Positions 1 through 8,118 of a stretch of 10,525 nucleotides of DNA are shown here, in pieces. The notes under the pieces are model-generated. The model was not told the DNA's origin. It searched no databases and saw only the letters and a list, made by a program, of their open reading frames with translations. Source of the DNA: a virus; the UHGV virus genome UHGV-0185920; one strand, written 5' to 3'. The position numbers were made by a program, and so were the translations under genes. Position 1 is the first letter of the stretch; each line of letters begins with the position of its first letter.

Positions 1-34
1 AAACACACCATATATTGAACGACAAGTAAATCAC

Positions 35-73
35 ATGTCACTCCTAGAATGCGATATCTTTAAGGAGTGACAT
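35..73. terminator. Perfect 11-bp inverted repeat (ATGTCACTCCT / AGGAGTGACAT) with 17-nt loop; possible terminator downstream of the tailspike gene
   Basis: Stem arms at 35..45 and 63..73 read directly from the sequence; lies about 80 bp past the tailspike stop codon; moderately T-rich flanks on both strands. Function inferred. Confidence 0.3.
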
Positions 74-155
74 TTATCTATAACAAATTACTAAAACACC
101 CAAAAAACATAGACTTCAATTGGTAATATTGAGACTTAAGGTGTCAGTAAAATAG

Positions 156-2888
156 TTAATTTGCAAGCTTATTTTCCAGTTCTTCAATCCTCTTTATAAT
201 ATTTTTCTGACGTATACCTAATGCAGCAATCATTAGATACTGTAATTCATCATTTCTGAATGCATAGCGTTCTCCTGCTTCATGCGTAATAGTTATAGCC
301 TCACGAACAAGGTTACCTTCATCATCATAAACAGCTGGATCTGTATCTGTATATGCATCCCATCTGTCATAGCAGATCGCTCCGTATTTAAATGGATCAA
401 GTCCATTCTCTCTGAATATTTCCATTGCCCGTTGCACCGTAAGTCCGGCATGAAGTCTGGCATCAGCTCCCTTATTTTTTACACTATCAAGCCATTGATA
501 AAAACCAATTTCATCAACAAGAGCTAACCCAACCGCCTGCTCTTTATCGGAAAGAGTTCTGACTTCCGTTTTCTCTGTTGCATCAGATGTATTTATAGTT
601 GCAGTCCCTGCGTAGACCTGAGAAAAGCGGTTAACGGACCTTCCAAGTGATACCTGGTTATCAGTTGTTGGCCTTAATGTCGTCGTCGCCCATGTCGATG
701 TAGTATCTTTAGTCGCAGAAAATACTGTTACATTCCCCTGCTTAAGTCTGACGACACCTCCATCTGTAGAGGCAAGTATCAACTCACCAGCCGCAGATGG
801 ACAATCAGCAGCATGGATATCAATATAAGCACCACCCGCAGTATTCCCATCTTTAGAACGGAACTGCATACCTCGAAAGTTTGAGTCGAATACTGCTTTC
901 GTACTTACCCATGAATTATTGTCATGTCCGTAATCTGTATCAAACAGGTTAAGGTTATTTCCATAATTCAACTCGAGGGATTTGGTATACTCTCCAATGG
1001 CTTCGTCAAATATCGCAATAGTAAATGAACCGTGCTCACGGTTAAAGGCGATATCAGTTCCAGCATAATATTGATGCGCGGTTCCGGTATACGGATCGGA
1101 TTCTGCACCATGCACTGGATGGTTGCCAAGAATATCAGACAGGTTTGCTATTCCAAACAGATGCTTATTTCTGCGAGTATAATCACCTGATTTATATGTT
1201 GCGCCTGAATCCCATTCACCACTTGTCGCTGCAAGCGATGTTTTTAACCAATAAGACCTGTTTGTCGGAAGATTTCCCTTGTTATCACCAGTAACAATAC
1301 TTACCCAATTTTTACCACGATGGCTTACAACATCCCCTGCGCTTTTCCATACATCCATAGCACCACAGACAAGTTCATCACCTCTTATTGCCAGCCCTTC
1401 AGGCTCAAAGCTAACCGGAACTCCGATTTTAGAGTCAGAACCATTTAACTGAGTCTCTGTATAAAGTGATGCGGCAAGTGATACAGGAAATGAACGTATT
1501 AGCGTACCACCCATATCATAAATCTGTACTGTCCTTACGCATCTTGCAGGAACGCCACCCCAAATTGTGTAAATATATCTGCTATCTGATGTAATACCCT
1601 GAAGTGTTGCACCATACTGACCTTTACCACGGACAAGTGGAACAGGACCATTAATCGGTCTAACTTTCATTGGGTTAGAAGAAGATTCCACTTCTTTGCG
1701 ATCATATACGTATAAAAAGCGGCCAGTCCCAGCGTTTGATGTCGCAATTAATATGACATATCGCCCATCATTAGATACACAAATACTTGCCCGCTGCGCA
1801 AGGTTAATCAGATTATTATCACCCGGCTCACCAAATACTCGGTAATGAGTTATATCTTCAGCAGATGTTGATGCCCCTTTCCATTTTGTCTTTGAATACC
1901 CCTTCCCTCCTAGAGAGGAACCAGTCTCAGCAATTGTTGTTGTAAACAGATATAGTTCACCGTTCTCTATTGTGGCAGAAAGATCTGAACCGTGACCAAG
2001 AGGCAATGGCTCTGTAAATGTCACAACATAAAGAGTTGAACCATCGCTTGTATAGTGCCACTCACTGATCCTTGTGAGGGTGTCCGTTCCCCAGTTAGAA
2101 CCTCCAACCTGTTGAGTGATAAAAACCTTCTCAATACCTTCATGCCTTACACAAGCTATTCCCTGCAATGCATTTTGTGCATTCGCATATATAGTTGGCG
2201 CATTGATATCATCACCAAAATTCAGGGTCGCAAGTTTTCTTTGTCCAATGGAGAAACTTTGCATCGGCGGATTAACAGAAATGCGAACACCATTACTGAT
2301 TAGAACACCATCACCGGAGAAGCGTGAAATATCTATTTTCGATGCATCAACTATAAACTCACCAGAAGGCACATGAACCAAACCACTATTTCCTGCGCTA
2401 GATGCGGCGTCAAGAAAAGCCTGTGTTGAATCTCTATTCCCAGAGTCATCCGCCCCCCACCCGCGAACGTCTTTATCATCCCGCCATCGTGCAATCTGTA
2501 ATTCAGGGTATTTTTTAGCACCATCAGGATCTTCTAATTGCTGCCGTAACTGATCCGGGTCATACTTCAGCACATTCGGAAAATAGAACTGCTGCGTACC
2601 ATAAGCATCGTACACAGCCATAGAGTGTCCTTTCACAGTAACGAATTTGGCAATCTGTCCGTTATATACAGGATATCCAGCAGCATTGATAACGATTGGT
2701 TGCGAAACAGGAACGTGAGAACCATCTTCATTCTCTACATAAACCTGAATCTGGTTTTCAGGATTTACAGGGTCAGTGTCAATTTTACCGATATAAATTT
2801 TTCCATTAGCTACGGCTTTAAAAGAACGAGCCATAGTGAAGAGTTGAGAAGGCATCCCAATTACAACATTTGGAGTTATATCAGGCAT
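156..2888 (-). CDS. Tailspike protein: P22 gp9-like N-terminal head-binding domain, central receptor-binding/depolymerase domain of unknown specificity, C-terminal peptidase-S74-type intramolecular chaperone domain
   Basis: Minus-strand ORF 156..3041 in the track. From MPDITPNVV through [26 protein letters not shown] to LKYDPDQ the protein matches the P22 tailspike N-terminal domain as I recall it. Start chosen at ATG 2888 (AGGA 8 nt upstream); alternative ATG at 2897; the track Met at 3041 adds 48 residues with no homology. C-terminal SDATEK (Ser and Lys at i and i+5), HAGLTVQ and [10 protein letters not shown] resemble autocleaving tail-fibre chaperone domains. Confidence 0.9.
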
Positions 2889-3235
2889 ATTAGTCATCCT
2901 GTTTGAAAATTTAGATATTGAAGAAAACGGAATGACTGCAGACAAAGATGCAATTGTTTTGAAAAATAATCTTCTATTCACTTTAAAACTATGCAACATG
3001 AACAAAACAATTATTTTACAACAAGCAAGAATCTTGATCAACAGACATATGCTTTATGCGTTTAATGCGTCACTTAAAAATAACAAGTACTACTTTTATT
3101 CCTATCGTCCATGATTTTCATTTTCAAATATTATTAAATAACAATTCCTATTTATAATATCTGTCATTTAATTTGCTCCAGATACAAGGAATCGCTGCAG
3201 CGTGGCCGCAGTGATGCATTATTAATCAAATAAAG

Positions 3236-3250
3236 AGACCACAGTGGTCT
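3236..3250. promoter_or_regulatory. Perfect 15-bp palindrome AGACCACAGTGGTCT; candidate Mnt operator, abutting a candidate mnt promoter (TTGAGG 3253..3258, 17-bp spacer, TAAGAT 3276..3281)
   Basis: Palindrome read directly; it sits 64 bp upstream of the mnt start and its CCAC-N-GTGG core resembles the P22 mnt operator as I recall it. Promoter hexamers are weak matches picked by eye. Confidence 0.45.
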
Positions 3251-3313
3251 TATTGAGGATGCAACCAGCAGATAATAAGATGCCGCTCCACTCACAAAAG
3301 CGAGGCATCAAGA

Positions 3314-3565
3314 ATGGGAAGAGATGACCCGCAATTTAATCTGCGGCTACTTTACGAATTAAAGGAAAAACTAAAACAGCGAGCCAAATCCAATGGCCGC
3401 TCTCTTAATTCAGAATTAGTTCAGATAGTGACTGATGCTGTATCAAAGCCATCCAAAATTTCAGACTATCGAGACGATGCAGAACGCATCGCTGATGAGC
3501 AGTCCGAACTTGTTAGGAAGATGGTGTTTGATACGCTGAAGGATTTGTACAAAAAACCCACCTGA
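3314..3565 (+). CDS. mnt: Mnt repressor (P22 immI maintenance repressor, ribbon-helix-helix family)
   Basis: 83-aa ORF; GRDDPQFNLRL, NGRSLNSELVQIV and DAERIADEQSELVRKMVFDTLKDLYKK closely match P22 Mnt as I recall it, including the C-terminal tetramerisation region; GAGG 8 nt upstream of the ATG. Confidence 0.9.
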   Translation: MGRDDPQFNLRLLYELKEKLKQRAKSNGRSLNSELVQIVTDAVSKPSKISDYRDDAERIADEQSELVRKMVFDTLKDLYKKPT

Positions 3566-3583
3566 AGGTGGGTCCTATTTATT
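3551..3583. terminator. Bidirectional rho-independent terminator between convergent mnt and the lipoprotein gene
   Basis: 7-bp perfect stem ACCCACC (3556..3562) / GGTGGGT (3567..3573) with TGAA loop; A-run on the left (a U-run for the minus-strand transcript) and T-rich tract on the right. The mnt stop codon TGA at 3563..3565 lies in the loop. Confidence 0.6.
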
Positions 3584-4001
3584 AGTCTTGCTTTGTTGAT
3601 GGTATAAGAGATGCGTTTGCCTCTTTTGGCTTCAAGGTATACATCCCACCATTAAAAGGATCTACAGCAAGCCAACCAATTAACCCACCAAACACAAGGT
3701 TTCCACCAATATACCAGCCATTAGCATTGGCTTTGATTGGCAGGGTAACTGGTTCGTACCCATCCTTTTCCATAGTGATCTGGTAGCTCTTTTTGCCAAA
3801 ATAACTACCATCTGACTTGGCAAGAGTTACTCCTTGTGGGGTCTTACCTTGCGCAACAATCACGCCTGATTCGTCTTTTACCTTAAAGCTCGCACCGGAA
3901 GGATTGCTGTTCACTTGCACAAGCTGCGTTTCGTCACCAACAATAGTTGCGCACCCAGATAACAATATAGCGCCAGCAACGACGCCAATAATCCTCTTCA
4001 T
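3582..4001 (-). CDS. Putative lipoprotein with C-terminal glycine-rich (glycine-zipper-like) segment; function unknown
   Basis: ORF 3582..4013 in the track. Signal peptide with lipobox (MKRIIGVVAGAILLSGC) and glycine-rich GGNLVFGGLIGWLAVDPFNGG near the C-terminus. Start placed at ATG 4001 (MKR) rather than 4013; the 4001 versus 4013 choice is uncertain because neither has a strong RBS. Confidence 0.7.
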   Translation of the reverse strand: MKRIIGVVAGAILLSGCATIVGDETQLVQVNSNPSGASFKVKDESGVIVAQGKTPQGVTLAKSDGSYFGKKSYQITMEKDGYEPVTLPIKANANGWYIGGNLVFGGLIGWLAVDPFNGGMYTLKPKEANASLIPSTKQD

Positions 4002-4118
4002 ATCAATTTCCATATTTAAAAAACCGGAAACATCCTAATGACAAACCATTCAAATGTGAAGTAGGCAAAAGATGTTTACTTTTTTCATGGTATCCTGCTC
4101 AAAACTAAGGAGGTTGGC

Positions 4119-4508
4119 GTGAAGCAATTTCTTACTGCTATGTTCTTATTCATATCTTTTGGGGCTACAGCAGAGTGCTGGGTCGTTGGAGATATGCGCG
4201 GAATAAGCTATTCAGAACGAAATAATTTCCATCCGGAAGAAGATGGTTTTAGTGGAACATTCATCATTAAGACAAACGGTGAAGATGCCAGCATCACATA
4301 TTCTGGGACAGATGCGGGCGGCATGGCTTACAAAGCATTGTCTAAAAACTCCATCATAGGAATCGGCGCGAATGGCGAAACTCAACGCGTTATCGACTCA
4401 TGGGTAATACATCCTACTGGAACAGTTTTAATGTCAAAAACCATTTCCGGTTATAGAAATATGGATTCAACCAAAGCTTTTGTTGGAAAAGTAAAAAGAA
4501 AATGTTAG
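4119..4508 (+). CDS. Secreted (signal-peptide) protein of unknown function
   Basis: 129-aa ORF starting at GTG 4119 with a strong RBS (AAGGAGG 4107..4113, 5-nt spacer); N-terminal hydrophobic signal-like sequence MKQFLTAMFLFISFGATA followed by a soluble domain; I recognise no family. Confidence 0.7.
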   Translation: MKQFLTAMFLFISFGATAECWVVGDMRGISYSERNNFHPEEDGFSGTFIIKTNGEDASITYSGTDAGGMAYKALSKNSIIGIGANGETQRVIDSWVIHPTGTVLMSKTISGYRNMDSTKAFVGKVKRKC

Positions 4509-4599
4509 CGATTGAATCCAATTTCCCATACGTTACTGCTGTGTTGCCTCAGTAGCAAACAGCGGTCTGATGGCATTCGCAGCGTTATTTATCGCTCTT

Positions 4600-5646
4600 T
4601 CATAGGCTGGTGTTCAGAACGTTTACCGGAGTGGTATCAGCAAGAGAGGTGTTTACGTTAGCGTAAGCCTTCTCTTCTTTTGTCAGTGACGCGTCATCCA
4701 GTGCAATCGGTTTCGGCGTGATTTCGATGTGAGTACCATCGATCACACGGGTGATTGAGAAAGTCGCATCATCAGTTAGCACGTTCTTCGCCATCTGAGA
4801 CAGGAATTTCACACCAGTGAAACTGATTTTGTCGCCGCGCTTAAATCCGGTGGTGGAGGATACGGTCACCGTTGCAACACGGTTGTCGACGTTCTCTTTG
4901 TTACCATCGGTATCAAGGGTGTATGCCTGCGGCTTAAACTTCTGCGCACCAGAAACAGTTACACCAGTAGCGGTTGACTTGGTAACTGCCGGAAGTTTCG
5001 GTGAGCGAAGAATTTCATCAAAGCCAGCAATCTGACGCTGAATAGTACCGTTGCGATACGCTTCTTCAGGAACGCGACCGAAGATGTCACCATCTACCAG
5101 GTTGCGGCCTGCTTTGCGGTAATCGTCAGGGTTCAGGAAGTAACTGATGCCCATGTCGCGGTTGAGTTCGCGGGAGAACATCAGGCGCTCTGCATCAGAC
5201 ACAAAATCCCAGCCAGACAGGCCAGTAGATGGACCAATTGCGCGGGTATCGTGAACAACAAGTGAGCCCATTTCAGTTGCCTGTTTGGCAATTGCTGACT
5301 CAATGTTATTCGCCAGTTTTTTAGCGGATGCCTGGATGCGGCGACGGTAAGAACGCTCATCACGCAGGTCATCTGCACGAAGCTCGAAGAAATCGTTATC
5401 CGGATCGCCCATGTTGCATTTCACGGAGAGTTCCAGAATCCCAGTTGCGTTGCCAGTTAAATCCCAGCCAGTCTGGGTTGGCGCTTCCTGCTCAACAGGC
5501 ATCCACACGGTGTTGCTTGAACGCCGCATGGATTCTGCCGGAGGGGTGTATTTTGTCACTTTGGACGCCATTGGCGTCAGATTCTGGACGGTTTCGATGA
5601 TTTCATCCAGAGCATACGTGACCAGTTGACCTTCATTTAATGCCAT
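4600..5646 (-). CDS. Coat (major capsid) protein, P22 gp5-like, C-terminally truncated (348 aa versus about 430 aa for P22 coat as I recall)
   Basis: [83 protein letters not shown] and [10 protein letters not shown] match P22 coat; homology stops within a few codons of the stop at 4600. AAGGA RBS 8 nt upstream; the start overlaps the scaffold stop (TAATG). Could equally be annotated as a pseudogene. Confidence 0.85.
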
Positions 5647-6557
5647 TATCGAATTCCTTTATTCAGTTGCGCCTTGAGCTTGCGGTACGTCTCTACATCC
5701 CTTTTGTTTGCTGCCGCTTCCATCTGCTTTTCAATCGCAGAGATATTTGCAGCAACAGCGTGTCCCTGAATTGGTTCATCAGGTAACGGGGCTTCTGAAA
5801 CAGGCTTGGCTCGAGGCTTGAGAGTTAAACGTTCTGACAGTCGAGTGAGTTCAATCAGCGCGGATTGCCCGTCCATCGCCAGCAACTGGCGTGTTTTTTC
5901 AGGATTAGCACCAAGGTGATACATGAGAGCAGCGGATTTCTCCGGGAAGAGGCGCATGATGTCGGCACCGACTGCTGGCGGCACCAGTTGCATGAATGCA
6001 TCCTCTTTCTCCTGATAGTCAGGGATATTGAGCTTTTCCGCTGCGTCGTAGTGCTTACGGGCTGCCTCGACGTATTGCGCTGATTGCTGGGTGAACTCCT
6101 GAGTTTTGCGACCCTGCTCGGCGACAGCCTGGCTTCGTGCGTCCATAGCCTTGATCTGCCATTCACTGTTTGCCTGCTGGAAGGCAGCCAGTGCGCGGCT
6201 CTGGTCATAGTCGTACTTAGCCAGTGCATCTTCGGAAAGATAATCGTTAGGGTCTGGTTGTTTTGGTAACTCAGGGTTCACCCGCAGGTGCTCCGGCAAC
6301 TCTCCACGCTTAACCGCTTCCATCTGCTGCTCAAGCTCACGCTGGCGTTTGCGTTCGATGCGGCGACGGGCAAATTCAGCATTAGTTGCCGGGTCTTGTT
6401 TTGGTTTCTCATCGTCTTTCAGGACAATCTCGAAGCCTTCTTCCTGACCTGCGTTGTCGTTGGCATTATCGACAACTAAGCCATCAGCAGATGCCGCTGC
6501 ATGATTGCCGGGCAGGGTTAATTCTTCAGAAGCCTGAATGTCGGTGGTTTGGTCCAT
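5646..6557 (-). CDS. Scaffolding protein (P22 gp8-like), apparently full length (303 aa)
   Basis: [62 protein letters not shown] and the C-terminal coat-binding region ([16 protein letters not shown]) match P22 gp8 as I recall it; it sits immediately upstream of coat with a TAATG overlap. Confidence 0.9.
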
Positions 6558-6570
6558 GATTAACTCTCTC

Positions 6571-7311
6571 TTATTGAGGTGTCTCGGCTACTCCGCCGGA
6601 GGGGATTTGAACTTGACGCATAAGATTCGCGAAATCCATGCGTTGTGAATGAGTCTGGTCTGCATCTTTAAGAAGCAGCTCAGCGTTAGCACGAGCATCT
6701 TTGCTGCGCTGTTGCTGGAATTGACCTACTAGCTTGAGGTACTCACGCAGTTCTGCCTGCTTGTCGAGGTCCATATTGTTGAAGATTTCTGCAATCTTCG
6801 CGGCGTTGAGTTGGTTTTGGGCTTCAACCTTGGCGGCTTCAACCTGAATCTGCGCCTGTTGGTTCTCTGCCTTGAGCAATTCAGCCTGACCTTGCAGAAG
6901 GATACCCTGCGCCTGAATTTGCTCTGCTGATGGCTGCTGCGGCTGCTGTTGAGCCTGCTGTACCATCTCCATCTCTTCAGGTGTTTCTGGTTTCTTCAGC
7001 CCCATCATCACCAGTTGCTTGTTCGCGTAACGCCCGGTAAGGTGAAACGCGACTTCAGCAGCACCAGTAAATGACTTACCAAGCTGGTTACCAGCCATAA
7101 AACATCGCTCTGGATAGTCATGCCCGGCGTCGATGAACTCACGCTGTTTGCTGTATGGCGTAAATTCATATACCGGAGAAACAGGAGAAGAGTTCTCGGT
7201 AAATATCTCGCTTGAGTCATCAATGCGATATCGGGCGCGTCCTGACGCTTCAACGATTTTATGGTGGATGGAACAGAGTGAAGAAGCCAGAAAATCGCTA
7301 ACCAGCAACAC
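6571..7311 (-). pseudogene. In-frame fusion remnant: large terminase N-proximal fragment (Walker A region, about 7027..7170) joined to portal protein C-terminal fragment (about 6571..7026)
   Basis: The upstream part contains [48 protein letters not shown], a large-terminase ATPase Walker A region. The downstream part is a Q/E/A-rich helical tail ([25 protein letters not shown] ... ETPQ) ending 13 nt before the scaffold start, where the portal C-terminus lies in P22. The first 47 track residues show no homology. Confidence 0.7.
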
Positions 7312-7630
7312 TCAAGAGCTTTCAACGGCTCTTTCATGGTTATCTGAATTCATCATAAAGAACGCCAACCACAAATTCGTTCAGGTTTGGGGGAATGGAG
7401 CATCATTTGACTGCGTTATTCTCCGCAACAGTTATTCGCTGACAGGGCAGCCAGTTCCGTGGCAGTGGTGGAATGACCGCGACGTAAGAACAATCGTCGA
7501 ACTTGGGAAGGTAATAGGATTCGACCCTAAGCGAGATATGCCATTCAAAGGAACTCGCCACAACGCGCTTGATGATGCCATTCACCAAGCCAAATACGTT
7601 TCAGCGATCTGGAAAAAGTTAGCTAAATAA
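7133..7630 (+). pseudogene. DnaQ-like (DEDD) 3'-5' exonuclease, N-terminally truncated (Exo II and Exo III motifs present, Exo I region missing)
   Basis: WGNGASFDCVIL (Exo II-like) and HNALDDAIHQAKY (Exo III-like), plus WWNDRDVRT, match the small phage exonuclease family; no DxE-containing N-terminal segment is found in any frame upstream; the 5' end overlaps the terminase fragment on the opposite strand. Confidence 0.65.
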
Positions 7631-7646
7631 TCAACAGGAGAAAACC

Positions 7647-7943
7647 ATGCCAGCGCCTCTGTATGGTGCGGATGACCCGCGCCGCTGTTCCGGCAATTCC
7701 GTATCGGAGGTGCTGGATAAATTCAGAAAAAACTACGATCGGATAATGTCGCTACCGCAGGAAACGAAAGAGGAAAAGGAATTTCGCCACTGTATATGGC
7801 TTGCAGAGAAAGAAGAACGAGAGCGAATTTACCAGACATCAATCCGACCATTCCGCAAAGCCACATATACCCACTTCCCTGAATATATCGACCCGCGCCT
7901 GCGTAATTACCGCTCACGCTATGGCGCTATCAGTAATGACTGA
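7647..7943 (+). CDS. Hypothetical early-region protein (98 aa)
   Basis: ATG with AGGAG RBS (7636..7640); co-directional and tightly packed with neighbouring genes; no family recognised. Confidence 0.6.
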
Positions 7944-7953
7944 GGAATTTACC

Positions 7954-8118
7954 ATGAGAGGACTTGCATACAATCCCGGCATTCTTCCGGCAGAAATGAT
8001 TATTCGCCAACGCGTAAAGCCAATGCCATCGAGAGAGGAATTGCTTAAGAGAAATTCTTTTCCATCAGTAAATCAAAACAAATATCTGAATGCGATGTGG
8101 CGGAGTGGGAAGAAATGA
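7954..8118 (+). CDS. Hypothetical small protein (54 aa)
   Basis: ATG 7954 with GAGG 8 nt upstream; its stop overlaps the next start (ATGA at 8115..8118). The track reports a longer 105-aa version from 7801 that overlaps the preceding gene; the short form is preferred. Confidence 0.45.

What the first reader, a model, noticed from the sequence alone, without database searches (positions are those of the whole stretch)
156..2888. Apparently intact modular tailspike retained in a prophage that has lost its tail hub and ejection genes
The 910-aa tailspike ORF is uninterrupted and keeps both the P22-type head-binding N-terminus and a C-terminal autoproteolytic chaperone-like domain (SDATEK Ser/Lys dyad spacing), whereas coat, portal and terminase are truncated and the gp4/gp10/gp26 tail-hub genes are absent from the window. 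This N-terminal adaptor plus C-terminal chaperone architecture is the one reported for endosialidase-type tailspikes of P22-like prophages, but I cannot determine the central domain's specificity by eye. Retention of an intact tailspike in a decaying prophage suggests selection, for example as a secreted polysaccharide depolymerase or as a part supplied to a related helper phage.
Basis: partly seen in the sequence, partly recalled or inferred. Interest (0 to 1): 0.5.

Follow-up and report, generated by a model that had tools for sequence, protein, structure and literature searches.

The report
Intact tailspike in young prophage remnant
An uninterrupted phage tailspike gene sits in a recently gutted P22-like prophage of E. 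coli. It is intact because the decay is too recent to have damaged it, not because it shows any sign of being kept by selection; its receptor-binding core is a little-studied beta-propeller type.

Summary
Window 156-2888 (-) encodes a 910-aa tailspike with a P22/Sf6 head-binding domain (aa 1-113) and a C-terminal intramolecular-chaperone domain (Ser768/Lys773, SDATEK). It lies in a roughly 11-kb remnant of a P22-like prophage between thrS and espL1 in E. coli TUM10008.

Compared with an intact relative (MS 16-3), the remnant has three clean deletions (7.4, 3.0 and 15.9 kb). It also lacks arc/ant and has IS1 in the integrase gene.

The central domain is not an endosialidase or a beta-helix. It is a five-bladed beta-propeller followed by a 'tower', homologous to Bacillus phage GA-1 gp12 and similar in fold to S. 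aureus phi11 Gp45.

The selection inference is not supported:
- Every retained gene not cut by a junction is intact, including the scaffold gene, which is useless alone.
- The tailspike has 0 nucleotide differences across at least five independently deleted remnants, and 1 from a copy that still has its full tail and ejection gene set.
- Random placement of the three deletions misses the gene 68% of the time.
- The late promoter, antiterminator and lysis genes are gone.
- Other lineages carry IS-disrupted copies.

This is an ordinary, recent prophage remnant. The propeller-type tailspike is of modest interest.

The parts
156..2888 (-). Tailspike CDS, 910 aa, uninterrupted (WP_098704038.1)
   Evidence: 99.8% aa identity to the tailspike of the intact MS 16-3 prophage
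2550..2888 (-). P22/Sf6-type head-binding (virion adaptor) domain, aa 1-113
   Evidence: Pfam PF09008 E 1.8e-65; Sf6 gp14 7sg7 aa 1-118 E 9e-64
2250..2549 (-). Linker plus small alpha/beta subdomain, about aa 114-213
   Evidence: AF2 model: helices and short strands before the first blade; the first ~21 residues have pLDDT below 50. Boundaries approximate.
1143..2249 (-). Five-bladed beta-propeller 'platform', about aa 214-582. Residues invariant across the family and GA-1 gp12: H299, K329, K333, D345, D374, Q430, D435, E495, E497, W514
1248..1340 (-). Small CBM5/12-like insertion, aa 517-547, absent from GA-1 gp12
   Evidence: Pfam CBM_5_12 E 1.1e-3, below cut-off; gap in the GA-1 row of alignment A2
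702..1142 (-). All-beta 'tower'-like region, about aa 583-729
   Evidence: AF2 strands at model residues 494-609, lower confidence; aligned with GA-1 gp12. Boundaries approximate.
585..701 (-). Stalk preceding the cleavage site, aa 730-768, ending in Ser768 (codon 585-587)
   Evidence: Pfam End_tail_spike, profile positions 123-160, 22.5 bits against a 25-bit cut-off; aligned with the stalks of 7y5s, 4uw8 and 3gw6
156..584 (-). C-terminal intramolecular chaperone domain, aa 769-910 plus stop. Lys773 is codon 570-572. Predicted to be released after cleavage following Ser768
   Evidence: Pfam Peptidase_S74; 3gw6, 3gud, 4uw8 and 7y5s alignments; SDATEK translation
2889..3313 (.). AT-rich region upstream of the tailspike. 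arc and ant are absent here. A 15-bp palindrome, AGACCACTGTGGTCT, at 3236-3250 aligns with the Mnt-operator position of the intact relative
   Evidence: P22-type Pant hexamers not conserved; promoter-like sites not enriched over shuffles
3314..3565 (+). mnt (Arc/Mnt-family repressor), intact, a divergent allele
   Evidence: Pfam Arc plus Repressor_Mnt; 75% aa identity to MS 16-3 Mnt
3582..4001 (-). PEGA-like lipoprotein, a moron-type gene at the position I recall sieA occupying in P22; intact
   Evidence: 100% identity to MS 16-3; sieA position from own knowledge
4140..4508 (+). Small protein with a signal-peptide-like N-terminus, intact
4612..4615 (.). Deletion junction 1. 7.4 kb lost: coat C-terminus, gp4, gp10, gp26, gp14, gp7, gp20, gp16. 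4-bp overlap of the flanking alignments
   Evidence: blastn map against L006, gene table
4606..5646 (-). Coat gene fragment, aa 1-347 of 431
5646..6557 (-). Scaffolding gene, complete (303 aa). Serves as an internal neutral control
   Evidence: Pfam E 3e-178; 99.7% identity, no stops
6571..7172 (-). Chimeric ORF: terminase-large aa 34-86 fused to portal aa 570-721. Junction 2 at 7028-7029 (3.0 kb lost); junction 3 at 7170-7172 (15.9 kb lost: ssb, erf, immC, replication, nin, antiterminator, lysis, small terminase)
7172..10093 (+). Early-left genes (exonuclease fragment, abc2, DUF2737, DUF551, small ORFs, xis-like), all without stops
10051..10448 (-). Integrase C-terminal fragment, cut by IS1, which starts at about 10449

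Best explanation
The window is the right-hand two-thirds of a very recently degraded P22-like prophage inserted between thrS and espL1.

How the remnant arose. Three internal deletions with 2-4 bp junction overlaps, plus an IS1 insertion in int, removed every function needed to make or release particles. Every gene not hit by a junction is unchanged. The tailspike is intact for three reasons:
- Essentially no mutational time has passed since the deletions.
- It lies at the prophage end next to the thrS-infC-rpmI-rplT operon (essential genes, from general knowledge), which shields it from one side.
- It lies between genes that are typical lysogenic-conversion or moron genes.

What the protein is (shown). 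It is a modular receptor-binding tailspike. A P22/Sf6 adaptor would dock on the gp4/gp10 tail hub. Next comes a five-bladed beta-propeller platform and tower homologous to GA-1 gp12 and similar in fold to phi11 Gp45. It ends in a stalk and a chaperone domain.

What is inferred. The chaperone domain should drive trimerisation and then cleave itself off after Ser768 using Lys773. The propeller binds, and perhaps cleaves or modifies, a surface polysaccharide of the original host, probably the polymer that the co-inherited acyltransferase modifies. In this remnant the gene is probably silent or poorly expressed. Its only realistic biological role is as a recombination donor of a host-range module to incoming P22-like phages.
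For: Identity and locus.

Deletion map against the complete 39.5-kb MS 16-3 prophage: five collinear blocks at 94.9-100% identity; gaps of 7,444, 2,962 and 15,908 bp; arc and ant missing.

All retained genes and fragments have no stops or frameshifts and are 97-100% identical, apart from the mnt allele at 75%.

Age: L008 and L015 are 100% identical to all 10,525 nt. The tailspike has 0 nt differences in eight loci covering at least five different deletion architectures, and 1 nt difference from L013, which still has coat through gp16. There are 0 differences from EC24, whose deletions are independent, and 5 (3 synonymous, 2 non-synonymous) from intact MS 16-3.

Random-placement model: P(all three deletions miss the tailspike) = 0.68.

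Disrupted copies elsewhere.

Domains.

Fold.

Linkage: the acyltransferase is present in exactly the same 5 of 5,426 complete genomes as the tailspike body.
Against: The identical protein survives in at least five independently deleted remnants. Taken alone, that could suggest retention. However, the look-up finds only intact identical proteins, so lost copies are invisible.

Expression was not measured. A weak promoter-like site lies 125 nt upstream (3041-3013).

Whether the propeller is enzymatic is unresolved. The characterised structural relative phi11 Gp45 is described only as a binder (PMC4901313). Yet polar residues are invariant all the way to GA-1 gp12, which fits catalysis.

The AF2 model is of moderate confidence (pLDDT 74.7), and the tower and stalk are poorly modelled.
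Confidence: 0.8

Rival explanations
1. Host-level selection keeps the tailspike itself. It would act as a polysaccharide depolymerase or surface-remodelling enzyme for the cell, or as a part supplied in trans to a helper P22-like phage.
For: An identical 910-aa protein is found in 260 collection blocks and in at least five deletion architectures. From my own knowledge, free P22 tailspikes can complete spike-less heads in vitro.
Against: There are 0 nt differences among the remnants, so nothing shows purifying selection. The scaffold and other now-useless genes are equally intact. The late promoter, antiterminator, holin and endolysin are deleted, and the P22-type Pant hexamers are not conserved upstream. 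No cleavable signal peptide is evident at the N-terminus, which is a virion adaptor (sequence). TUM10008 has only one head-binding-domain locus, so there is no resident P22-like partner (H21). IS-disrupted copies exist. The look-up is biased towards intact copies.
Confidence: 0.07
2. Selection acts on the flanking conversion or moron genes (hexapeptide acyltransferase on one side; Mnt, the PEGA lipoprotein and the signal-peptide protein on the other). The tailspike hitch-hikes because a deletion removing only it would need both endpoints inside about 3.3 kb.
For: Mnt, the PEGA lipoprotein and the acyltransferase are present in all nine contexts L007-L015. The closest deletion endpoint, in L012, stops just before the PEGA gene. 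The acyltransferase and tailspike co-occur in 5 of 5 genomes.
Against: The same ascertainment bias and lack of elapsed time apply. The 1.1-kb mnt-PEGA segment would rarely be hit by chance anyway. No function has been shown for any of these genes.
Confidence: 0.2
3. The remnant matters mainly as a gene bank. Incoming P22-like phages can pick up this receptor-binding module by homologous recombination through the conserved head-binding segment and the conserved upstream genes, and so switch host range.
For: The tailspike of strain E4 differs from the others almost only in codons 3-104, which marks a recombination boundary at the adaptor/body joint. The same propeller body is joined to T7-type, P22-type and other N-termini in relatives. 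The head-binding segment matches 1,122 genomes at 84-90% nucleotide identity.
Against: No recombinant derived from this remnant was observed. This is a consequence for phages, not an explanation of why the gene is intact.
Confidence: 0.3
4. The prophage is actually functional, or the deletions are assembly artefacts.
For: None found.
Against: This is a complete-genome assembly. The same junctions recur at 100% identity in independent assemblies L008 and L015. No tail-hub, ejection, lysis or replication genes lie within 12 kb on either side.
Confidence: 0.01

Closest known systems
Bacillus phage GA-1 gp12 (neck appendage protein precursor; chaperone domain solved as PDB 3gud)
   Same: Homologous across the propeller, the tower and the chaperone domain. 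tblastn gives 26.8% identity over 94% of the central query, E 3e-42. BFVD gives E 2.9e-39, TMq 0.60. The chaperone domain matches at E 9e-17. The invariant polar residues are shared.
   Different: The N-terminal virion adaptor differs (phi29-like collar attachment against P22 head-binding). GA-1 lacks the CBM5/12-like insert at aa ~520-580. Its host is Gram-positive. The ligand and activity of the GA-1 propeller were not found in the papers searched.
Staphylococcus aureus phage phi11 receptor-binding protein Gp45 (PDB 5efv)
   Different: Only 12% identity. Gp45 has a coiled-coil stem instead of a head-binding domain, and no Peptidase_S74 chaperone is described for it. It belongs to a siphovirus baseplate. 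It is described as binding GlcNAc on wall teichoic acid, with no enzymatic activity reported.
CUS-3 / K1F-type endosialidase tailspikes
   Same: CUS-3 is a P22-like E. coli prophage whose spike also combines a P22 head-binding N-terminus with a C-terminal Ser/Lys chaperone (P0031-P0043, H103, 3gw6).
P22 gp9 / Sf6 gp14 tailspikes
   Same: Same N-terminal adaptor, E 1e-45 to 9e-64. Same genomic position, after the ejection genes and immI and next to the conversion gene at the prophage end.
   Different: Those bodies are right-handed beta-helix endorhamnosidases without a cleavable chaperone (own knowledge). Here the body is a propeller plus tower with a Peptidase_S74 domain.
Cryptic or defective lambdoid prophages of E. 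coli (for example Rac, DLP12, Qin, e14)
   Same: A deletion- and IS-riddled remnant that keeps scattered intact genes.
   Different: This one is far younger. Its blocks are 99.6-100% identical to intact relatives, and it is clonal at 100% over 10.5 kb with other isolates. The comparison with the K-12 cryptic prophages rests on my own knowledge.

Membership tests
P22-type tailspike adaptor (Pfam PF09008 Head_binding) | N-terminal domain of about 110 aa matching the family profile end to end | tested here: met
   aa 1-113 against profile 1-113/113, 218.7 bits against a cut-off of 24; Sf6 and P22 structures
P22-type tailspike adaptor (Pfam PF09008 Head_binding) | Encoded in a P22-like genome at the gene-9 position | tested here: met
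   Same position in the intact MS 16-3 and E4 prophages
Intramolecular chaperone auto-processing domain (Peptidase_S74) | Domain-level sequence match | tested here: met
   PF13884 31.7 bits against a cut-off of 22; PDB 7y5s, 4uw8, 3gw6 and 3gud at E 1e-35 to 1e-16
Intramolecular chaperone auto-processing domain (Peptidase_S74) | Catalytic Ser, with Lys five residues downstream, at the domain start | tested here: met
   S768-D-A-T-E-K773 aligns with A911...K916 of 3gw6 (endoNF S911A mutant, own knowledge) and with the S-D-x-x-x-K of 3gud, 4uw8 and 7y5s
Intramolecular chaperone auto-processing domain (Peptidase_S74) | Actual autocleavage and release of the ~142-aa fragment after trimerisation | not testable with these tools
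   Needs mass spectrometry or SDS-PAGE of expressed protein with S768A and K773A controls
Endosialidase (GH58) tailspike | Six-bladed sialidase propeller with a lectin insertion (Pfam PF12217, PF12218, PF12195) | tested here: not met
Right-handed beta-helix depolymerase tailspike (Pectate_lyase_3 type) | Parallel beta-helix body | tested here: not met
GA-1 gp12 / phi11 Gp45-like propeller receptor-binding proteins | Five-bladed propeller platform followed by an all-beta tower in a phage receptor-binding protein | tested here: met
GA-1 gp12 / phi11 Gp45-like propeller receptor-binding proteins | Carbohydrate ligand bound in the propeller's central cavity | not testable with these tools
The ligand is unknown. 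phi11's site is itself only modelled (PMC4901313).
Five-bladed propeller glycoside hydrolases (GH43/32/62/68/130 clans) | Family catalytic acidic residues in the central funnel, and sequence membership | tested here: inconclusive
Defective (cryptic) prophage | Loss of genes essential for particle formation, lysis, replication and excision | tested here: met
   26.3 kb deleted relative to the intact relative, and IS1 in int
Domesticated prophage gene under host selection | Conservation beyond the neutral expectation (dN/dS below 1 after decay; intact while neighbours rot) | tested here: inconclusive
   0 substitutions since decay, so no power. The neighbours are equally intact. Disrupted copies exist.
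Domesticated prophage gene under host selection | Independent expression signals | tested here: inconclusive
   Late promoter and antiterminator deleted. Pant hexamers not conserved. One weak promoter-like site, with no enrichment over shuffles.

The most novel reading that the evidence does not exclude
The propeller body defines an unrecognised class of polysaccharide-cleaving (possibly phosphodiester- or glycoside-cleaving) tailspike shared between Gram-positive phi29-like phages (GA-1 gp12) and E. coli P22-like phages. In addition, the end module (PEGA lipoprotein, Mnt, tailspike, acyltransferase) is kept by host-level selection in several independently decayed remnants because the spike and the acyltransferase act together on the cell's own surface polymer.
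Probability: 0.06. Interest if true: 0.6.

Novelty: new member of a known kind. Interest (0 to 1): 0.18.

Why it matters
The practical lesson is methodological. An intact gene in a gutted prophage is not evidence of selection unless the remnant is old enough for neutral decay to show. Here the scaffold gene and the zero nucleotide differences give a clean internal control.

The residual biological interest lies in the tailspike body. It belongs to a small family, about 165 clusters at 50% identity among 1.84 billion representative proteins. That family links E. coli P22-like spikes to the GA-1 neck appendage and the phi11 receptor-binding protein. Its ligand and possible enzymatic activity are unknown. 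Beta-propeller spikes are acknowledged as poorly understood in phages (PMC12491483). Characterising this one would add a host-range module and, given its one-to-one linkage with the tailspike, a matching lysogenic-conversion acyltransferase.

Tried and rejected
- The PDB sequence search matched only the two terminal domains.
- dN/dS between the five complete-genome copies has too few changes to mean anything: 0-24 differences, and most of E4's lie in a recombined adaptor segment.
- The look-up of encoding contigs showed many differently deleted remnants with the identical protein. I first read this as possible retention, then rejected it because the look-up only finds intact identical proteins and the genes have 0 nt differences.
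- The acyltransferase could not serve as an unbiased anchor in the large collection because it lies outside the window. In complete genomes it marks the same five strains.
- P0004, a 390-aa N-terminal fragment with 28 member sequences, looked like a truncation. It is an insertion whose end I recognise as IS2, sitting at a contig end.
- The promoter scan found fewer sites than shuffled controls. Alignment to the P22-type Pant/Oarc/Omnt region of MS 16-3 showed that only the operator-like palindrome is conserved.
- A tRNA scan for an attachment site found none.
- Papers on EP335 gp13 and on E. coli HS phages were relevant only to the chaperone domain, not to the propeller body.
- I did not determine the O or K serotypes of the carrier strains.
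- I could not inspect the model coordinates to see whether the invariant acidic residues line the propeller funnel.
Full report
1. WHAT IS THERE

The window is 100% identical to E. coli TUM10008 chromosome NZ_CP135658.1, 492237-502761. The ORF at 156-2888 on the minus strand encodes 910 aa without interruption. RefSeq annotates it as WP_098704038.1, 'phage tailspike protein'.

Pfam finds Head_binding at aa 1-113 (E 1.8e-65) and Peptidase_S74 at aa 768-829 (E 1.9e-7, above the curated cut-off). It finds nothing significant between them.

The N-terminus aligns over its whole length with the Sf6 gp14 and P22 gp9 structures. The last ~190 aa match the solved chaperone-bearing ends of Klebsiella phage Kp7 fibre 7y5s, T5 pb1 4uw8, endosialidase 3gw6 and GA-1 3gud. 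SDATEK is aa 768-773, window 570-587. It aligns with A911...K916 of 3gw6. From my own knowledge, 3gw6 is the S911A mutant of endoNF, so Ser768 and Lys773 sit at the catalytic positions. Related proteins cleave after the conserved Ser, before Asp (PMC8217332). By inference the mature spike would be 768 aa and the released fragment 142 aa.

2. CONTEXT: A TRUE REMNANT, MAPPED BASE BY BASE

The element lies between thrS and espL1. Strain MS 16-3 carries a complete 39.5-kb P22-like prophage at the same site with a 99.8% identical tailspike.

Aligning the window to it gives five collinear blocks:
- 1-3214: tailspike and its upstream region, 99.6%.
- 3314-4615: mnt, a PEGA-like lipoprotein and a small secreted-looking protein, 94.9%.
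- 4612-7029: coat aa 1-347, scaffold, portal aa 570-721, 99.9%.
- 7028-7172: terminase aa 34-86, 100%.
- 7170-10448: early-left genes and the int C-terminus, 99.6%.

The gaps are three deletions:
- 7,444 bp: coat C-terminus, gp4, gp10, gp26, gp14, gp7, gp20, gp16.
- 2,962 bp: most of the terminase and portal genes.
- 15,908 bp: ssb, erf, immC, replication, nin, antiterminator, lysis, small terminase.

Each has a 2-4 bp overlap at the junction. In addition arc and ant are absent, and IS1 splits int. Nothing resembling tail-hub genes lies within 12 kb on either side.

3. THE CENTRAL DOMAIN

Fourteen relatives were aligned and aa 117-766 were modelled (pLDDT 74.7, pTM 0.71). The model shows 20 strands in four-strand antiparallel groups, followed by a second all-beta region.

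Foldseek against viral models puts Bacillus phage GA-1 gp12 first (E 2.9e-39, TMq 0.60, 26% identity). tblastn shows the same homology over 94% of the central query (E 3e-42). It also finds E. coli phages Gally, vB_EcoP-683R2 and PGN829.1 at 34-36% identity.

PHROGs places the body in phrog_1171, 'tail spike protein' (E 2e-140).

The family is small: 165 clusters at 50% identity out of 1.84 billion representatives.

Residues invariant from E. coli to GA-1 include H299, K329, K333, D345, D374, Q430, D435, E495, E497 and W514. That pattern is compatible with a catalytic or metal site. I could not check their geometry.

So the body is neither an endosialidase nor a beta-helix. Whether it only binds, or also cleaves, is open.

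4. IS RETENTION EVIDENCE OF SELECTION?

Several independent checks say no.

(a) Internal control. All ten other complete genes in the remnant are free of stops and frameshifts and 97-100% identical to the intact relative, apart from the divergent mnt allele. This includes the scaffolding gene, which has no use without coat and portal. Every truncation coincides with a deletion junction or IS1.

(b) Age. Independent assemblies L008 and L015 are 100% identical to all 10,525 nt of the window. The tailspike gene has 0 nucleotide differences in eight loci and 1 difference from L013, which still carries coat through gp16. dN/dS has no power: 0 differences from EC24, and 3 synonymous plus 2 non-synonymous from MS 16-3.

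(c) Position. With deletions of the observed sizes placed uniformly in the prophage, all three miss the tailspike with probability 0.68. The gene is also shielded on one side by the thrS-infC-rpmI-rplT operon, which is essential by general knowledge.

(d) Counter-examples. In GMF065 an ISEc31-associated deletion removed the head-binding end. In the L016 lineage an insertion whose end I recognise as IS2 interrupts codon ~386.

(e) Apparent support is biased. The identical protein occurs in at least five different deletion architectures: the window type, L012/L014, L010/L011, L007 and L009. But the look-up retrieves only intact identical proteins.

(f) Mechanism. The late promoter, antiterminator, holin and endolysin are deleted. 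The P22-type Pant hexamers seen in MS 16-3 are not conserved upstream of the spike; only an Mnt-operator-like palindrome remains. Promoter-like matches are not enriched. TUM10008 has no second head-binding-domain locus, so no resident partner phage (H21).

5. BEST EXPLANATION AND RIVALS

The locus is a young, clonally spreading remnant of a P22-like prophage. Its tailspike is intact by default.

Two less prosaic readings cannot be fully excluded:
- Hitch-hiking between selected conversion or moron genes. The hexapeptide acyltransferase just outside the window co-occurs with the spike in exactly the same 5 of 5,426 complete genomes.
- A role as a recombination donor for incoming phages. E4's copy differs almost only in codons 3-104, which marks the adaptor/body joint as a recombination boundary.

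6. COMPARISON AND NOVELTY

The architecture, a P22 adaptor plus a Ser/Lys chaperone, is known from CUS-3-type endosialidase spikes. The body is known as a fold from phi11 Gp45 and by homology from GA-1 gp12. Beta-propeller spikes are recognised but poorly characterised in phages (PMC12491483).

This particular combination is an uncharacterised member of known kinds. The evolutionary claim attached to it is not supported. Interest is low.

Noticed in passing
window 3236-3250 (and 3215-3313): The immI region lacks arc and ant. A perfect 15-bp palindrome, AGACCACTGTGGTCT, sits where the intact relative has the P22-type Mnt operator GGTCCACGGTGGACC. The Mnt protein here is only 75% identical to that relative's, which suggests a co-varying repressor/operator specificity pair. 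The P22 Pant -35 and -10 hexamers are not conserved.
   Followed up: partly
L001 11290-12000 (immediately left of window position 1): An intact hexapeptide-repeat acyltransferase lies between the tailspike and thrS. It is found in exactly the same 5 of 5,426 complete E. coli genomes as this tailspike body. It is likely the lysogenic-conversion partner that modifies the spike's receptor.
   Followed up: partly
window 3582-4001 (-) and 4140-4508 (+): A PEGA-like lipoprotein (lipobox LLSGC) and a small protein with a signal-peptide-like N-terminus lie between gene 16 and mnt, where I recall P22 carrying sieA. The lipoprotein is kept in all nine contexts examined. They are possible superinfection-exclusion morons.
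   Followed up: no
window 6571-7172 (-): In-frame chimeric ORF made by a deletion: terminase-large aa 34-86 fused to portal aa 570-721. RefSeq annotates it as a 'terminase large subunit domain-containing protein'.
   Followed up: yes
L005 (GMF065) 20001-23658; L016 9150-9184: Two other lineages carry disrupted copies of the same tailspike. One is an ISEc31-associated deletion that removes the head-binding end. The other is an insertion after codon ~386 whose end, TAGACTGGCCCCCTGAATCTCCAGACA, I recognise as IS2.
   Followed up: yes
L004 (E4) tailspike codons 3-104: 19 of 24 differences from the window's tailspike cluster in the head-binding domain and nearly all are synonymous. This marks a recombination mosaic with its boundary at the adaptor/body joint.
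   Followed up: partly
L007, L009-L012, L014 against L006: At least five independent deletion series of the same prophage occur at the same chromosomal site, some sharing junctions (9573|35182 in L012 and L014; 35187|36743 in L010 and L011). This could serve as a natural time series of prophage decay.
   Followed up: partly
window 1248-1340 (-), aa 517-547: A small CBM5/12-like W/Y-rich insertion in the propeller region is present in the enterobacterial relatives but absent from GA-1 gp12. It may be an added carbohydrate-binding element.
   Followed up: no
window 8097-9020 (+): The longest ORF here (307 aa) merges Ead/Ea22-like and DUF551 segments. RefSeq instead calls a YfdS fragment plus a 190-aa DUF551 protein. 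This region varies between the remnants.
   Followed up: no
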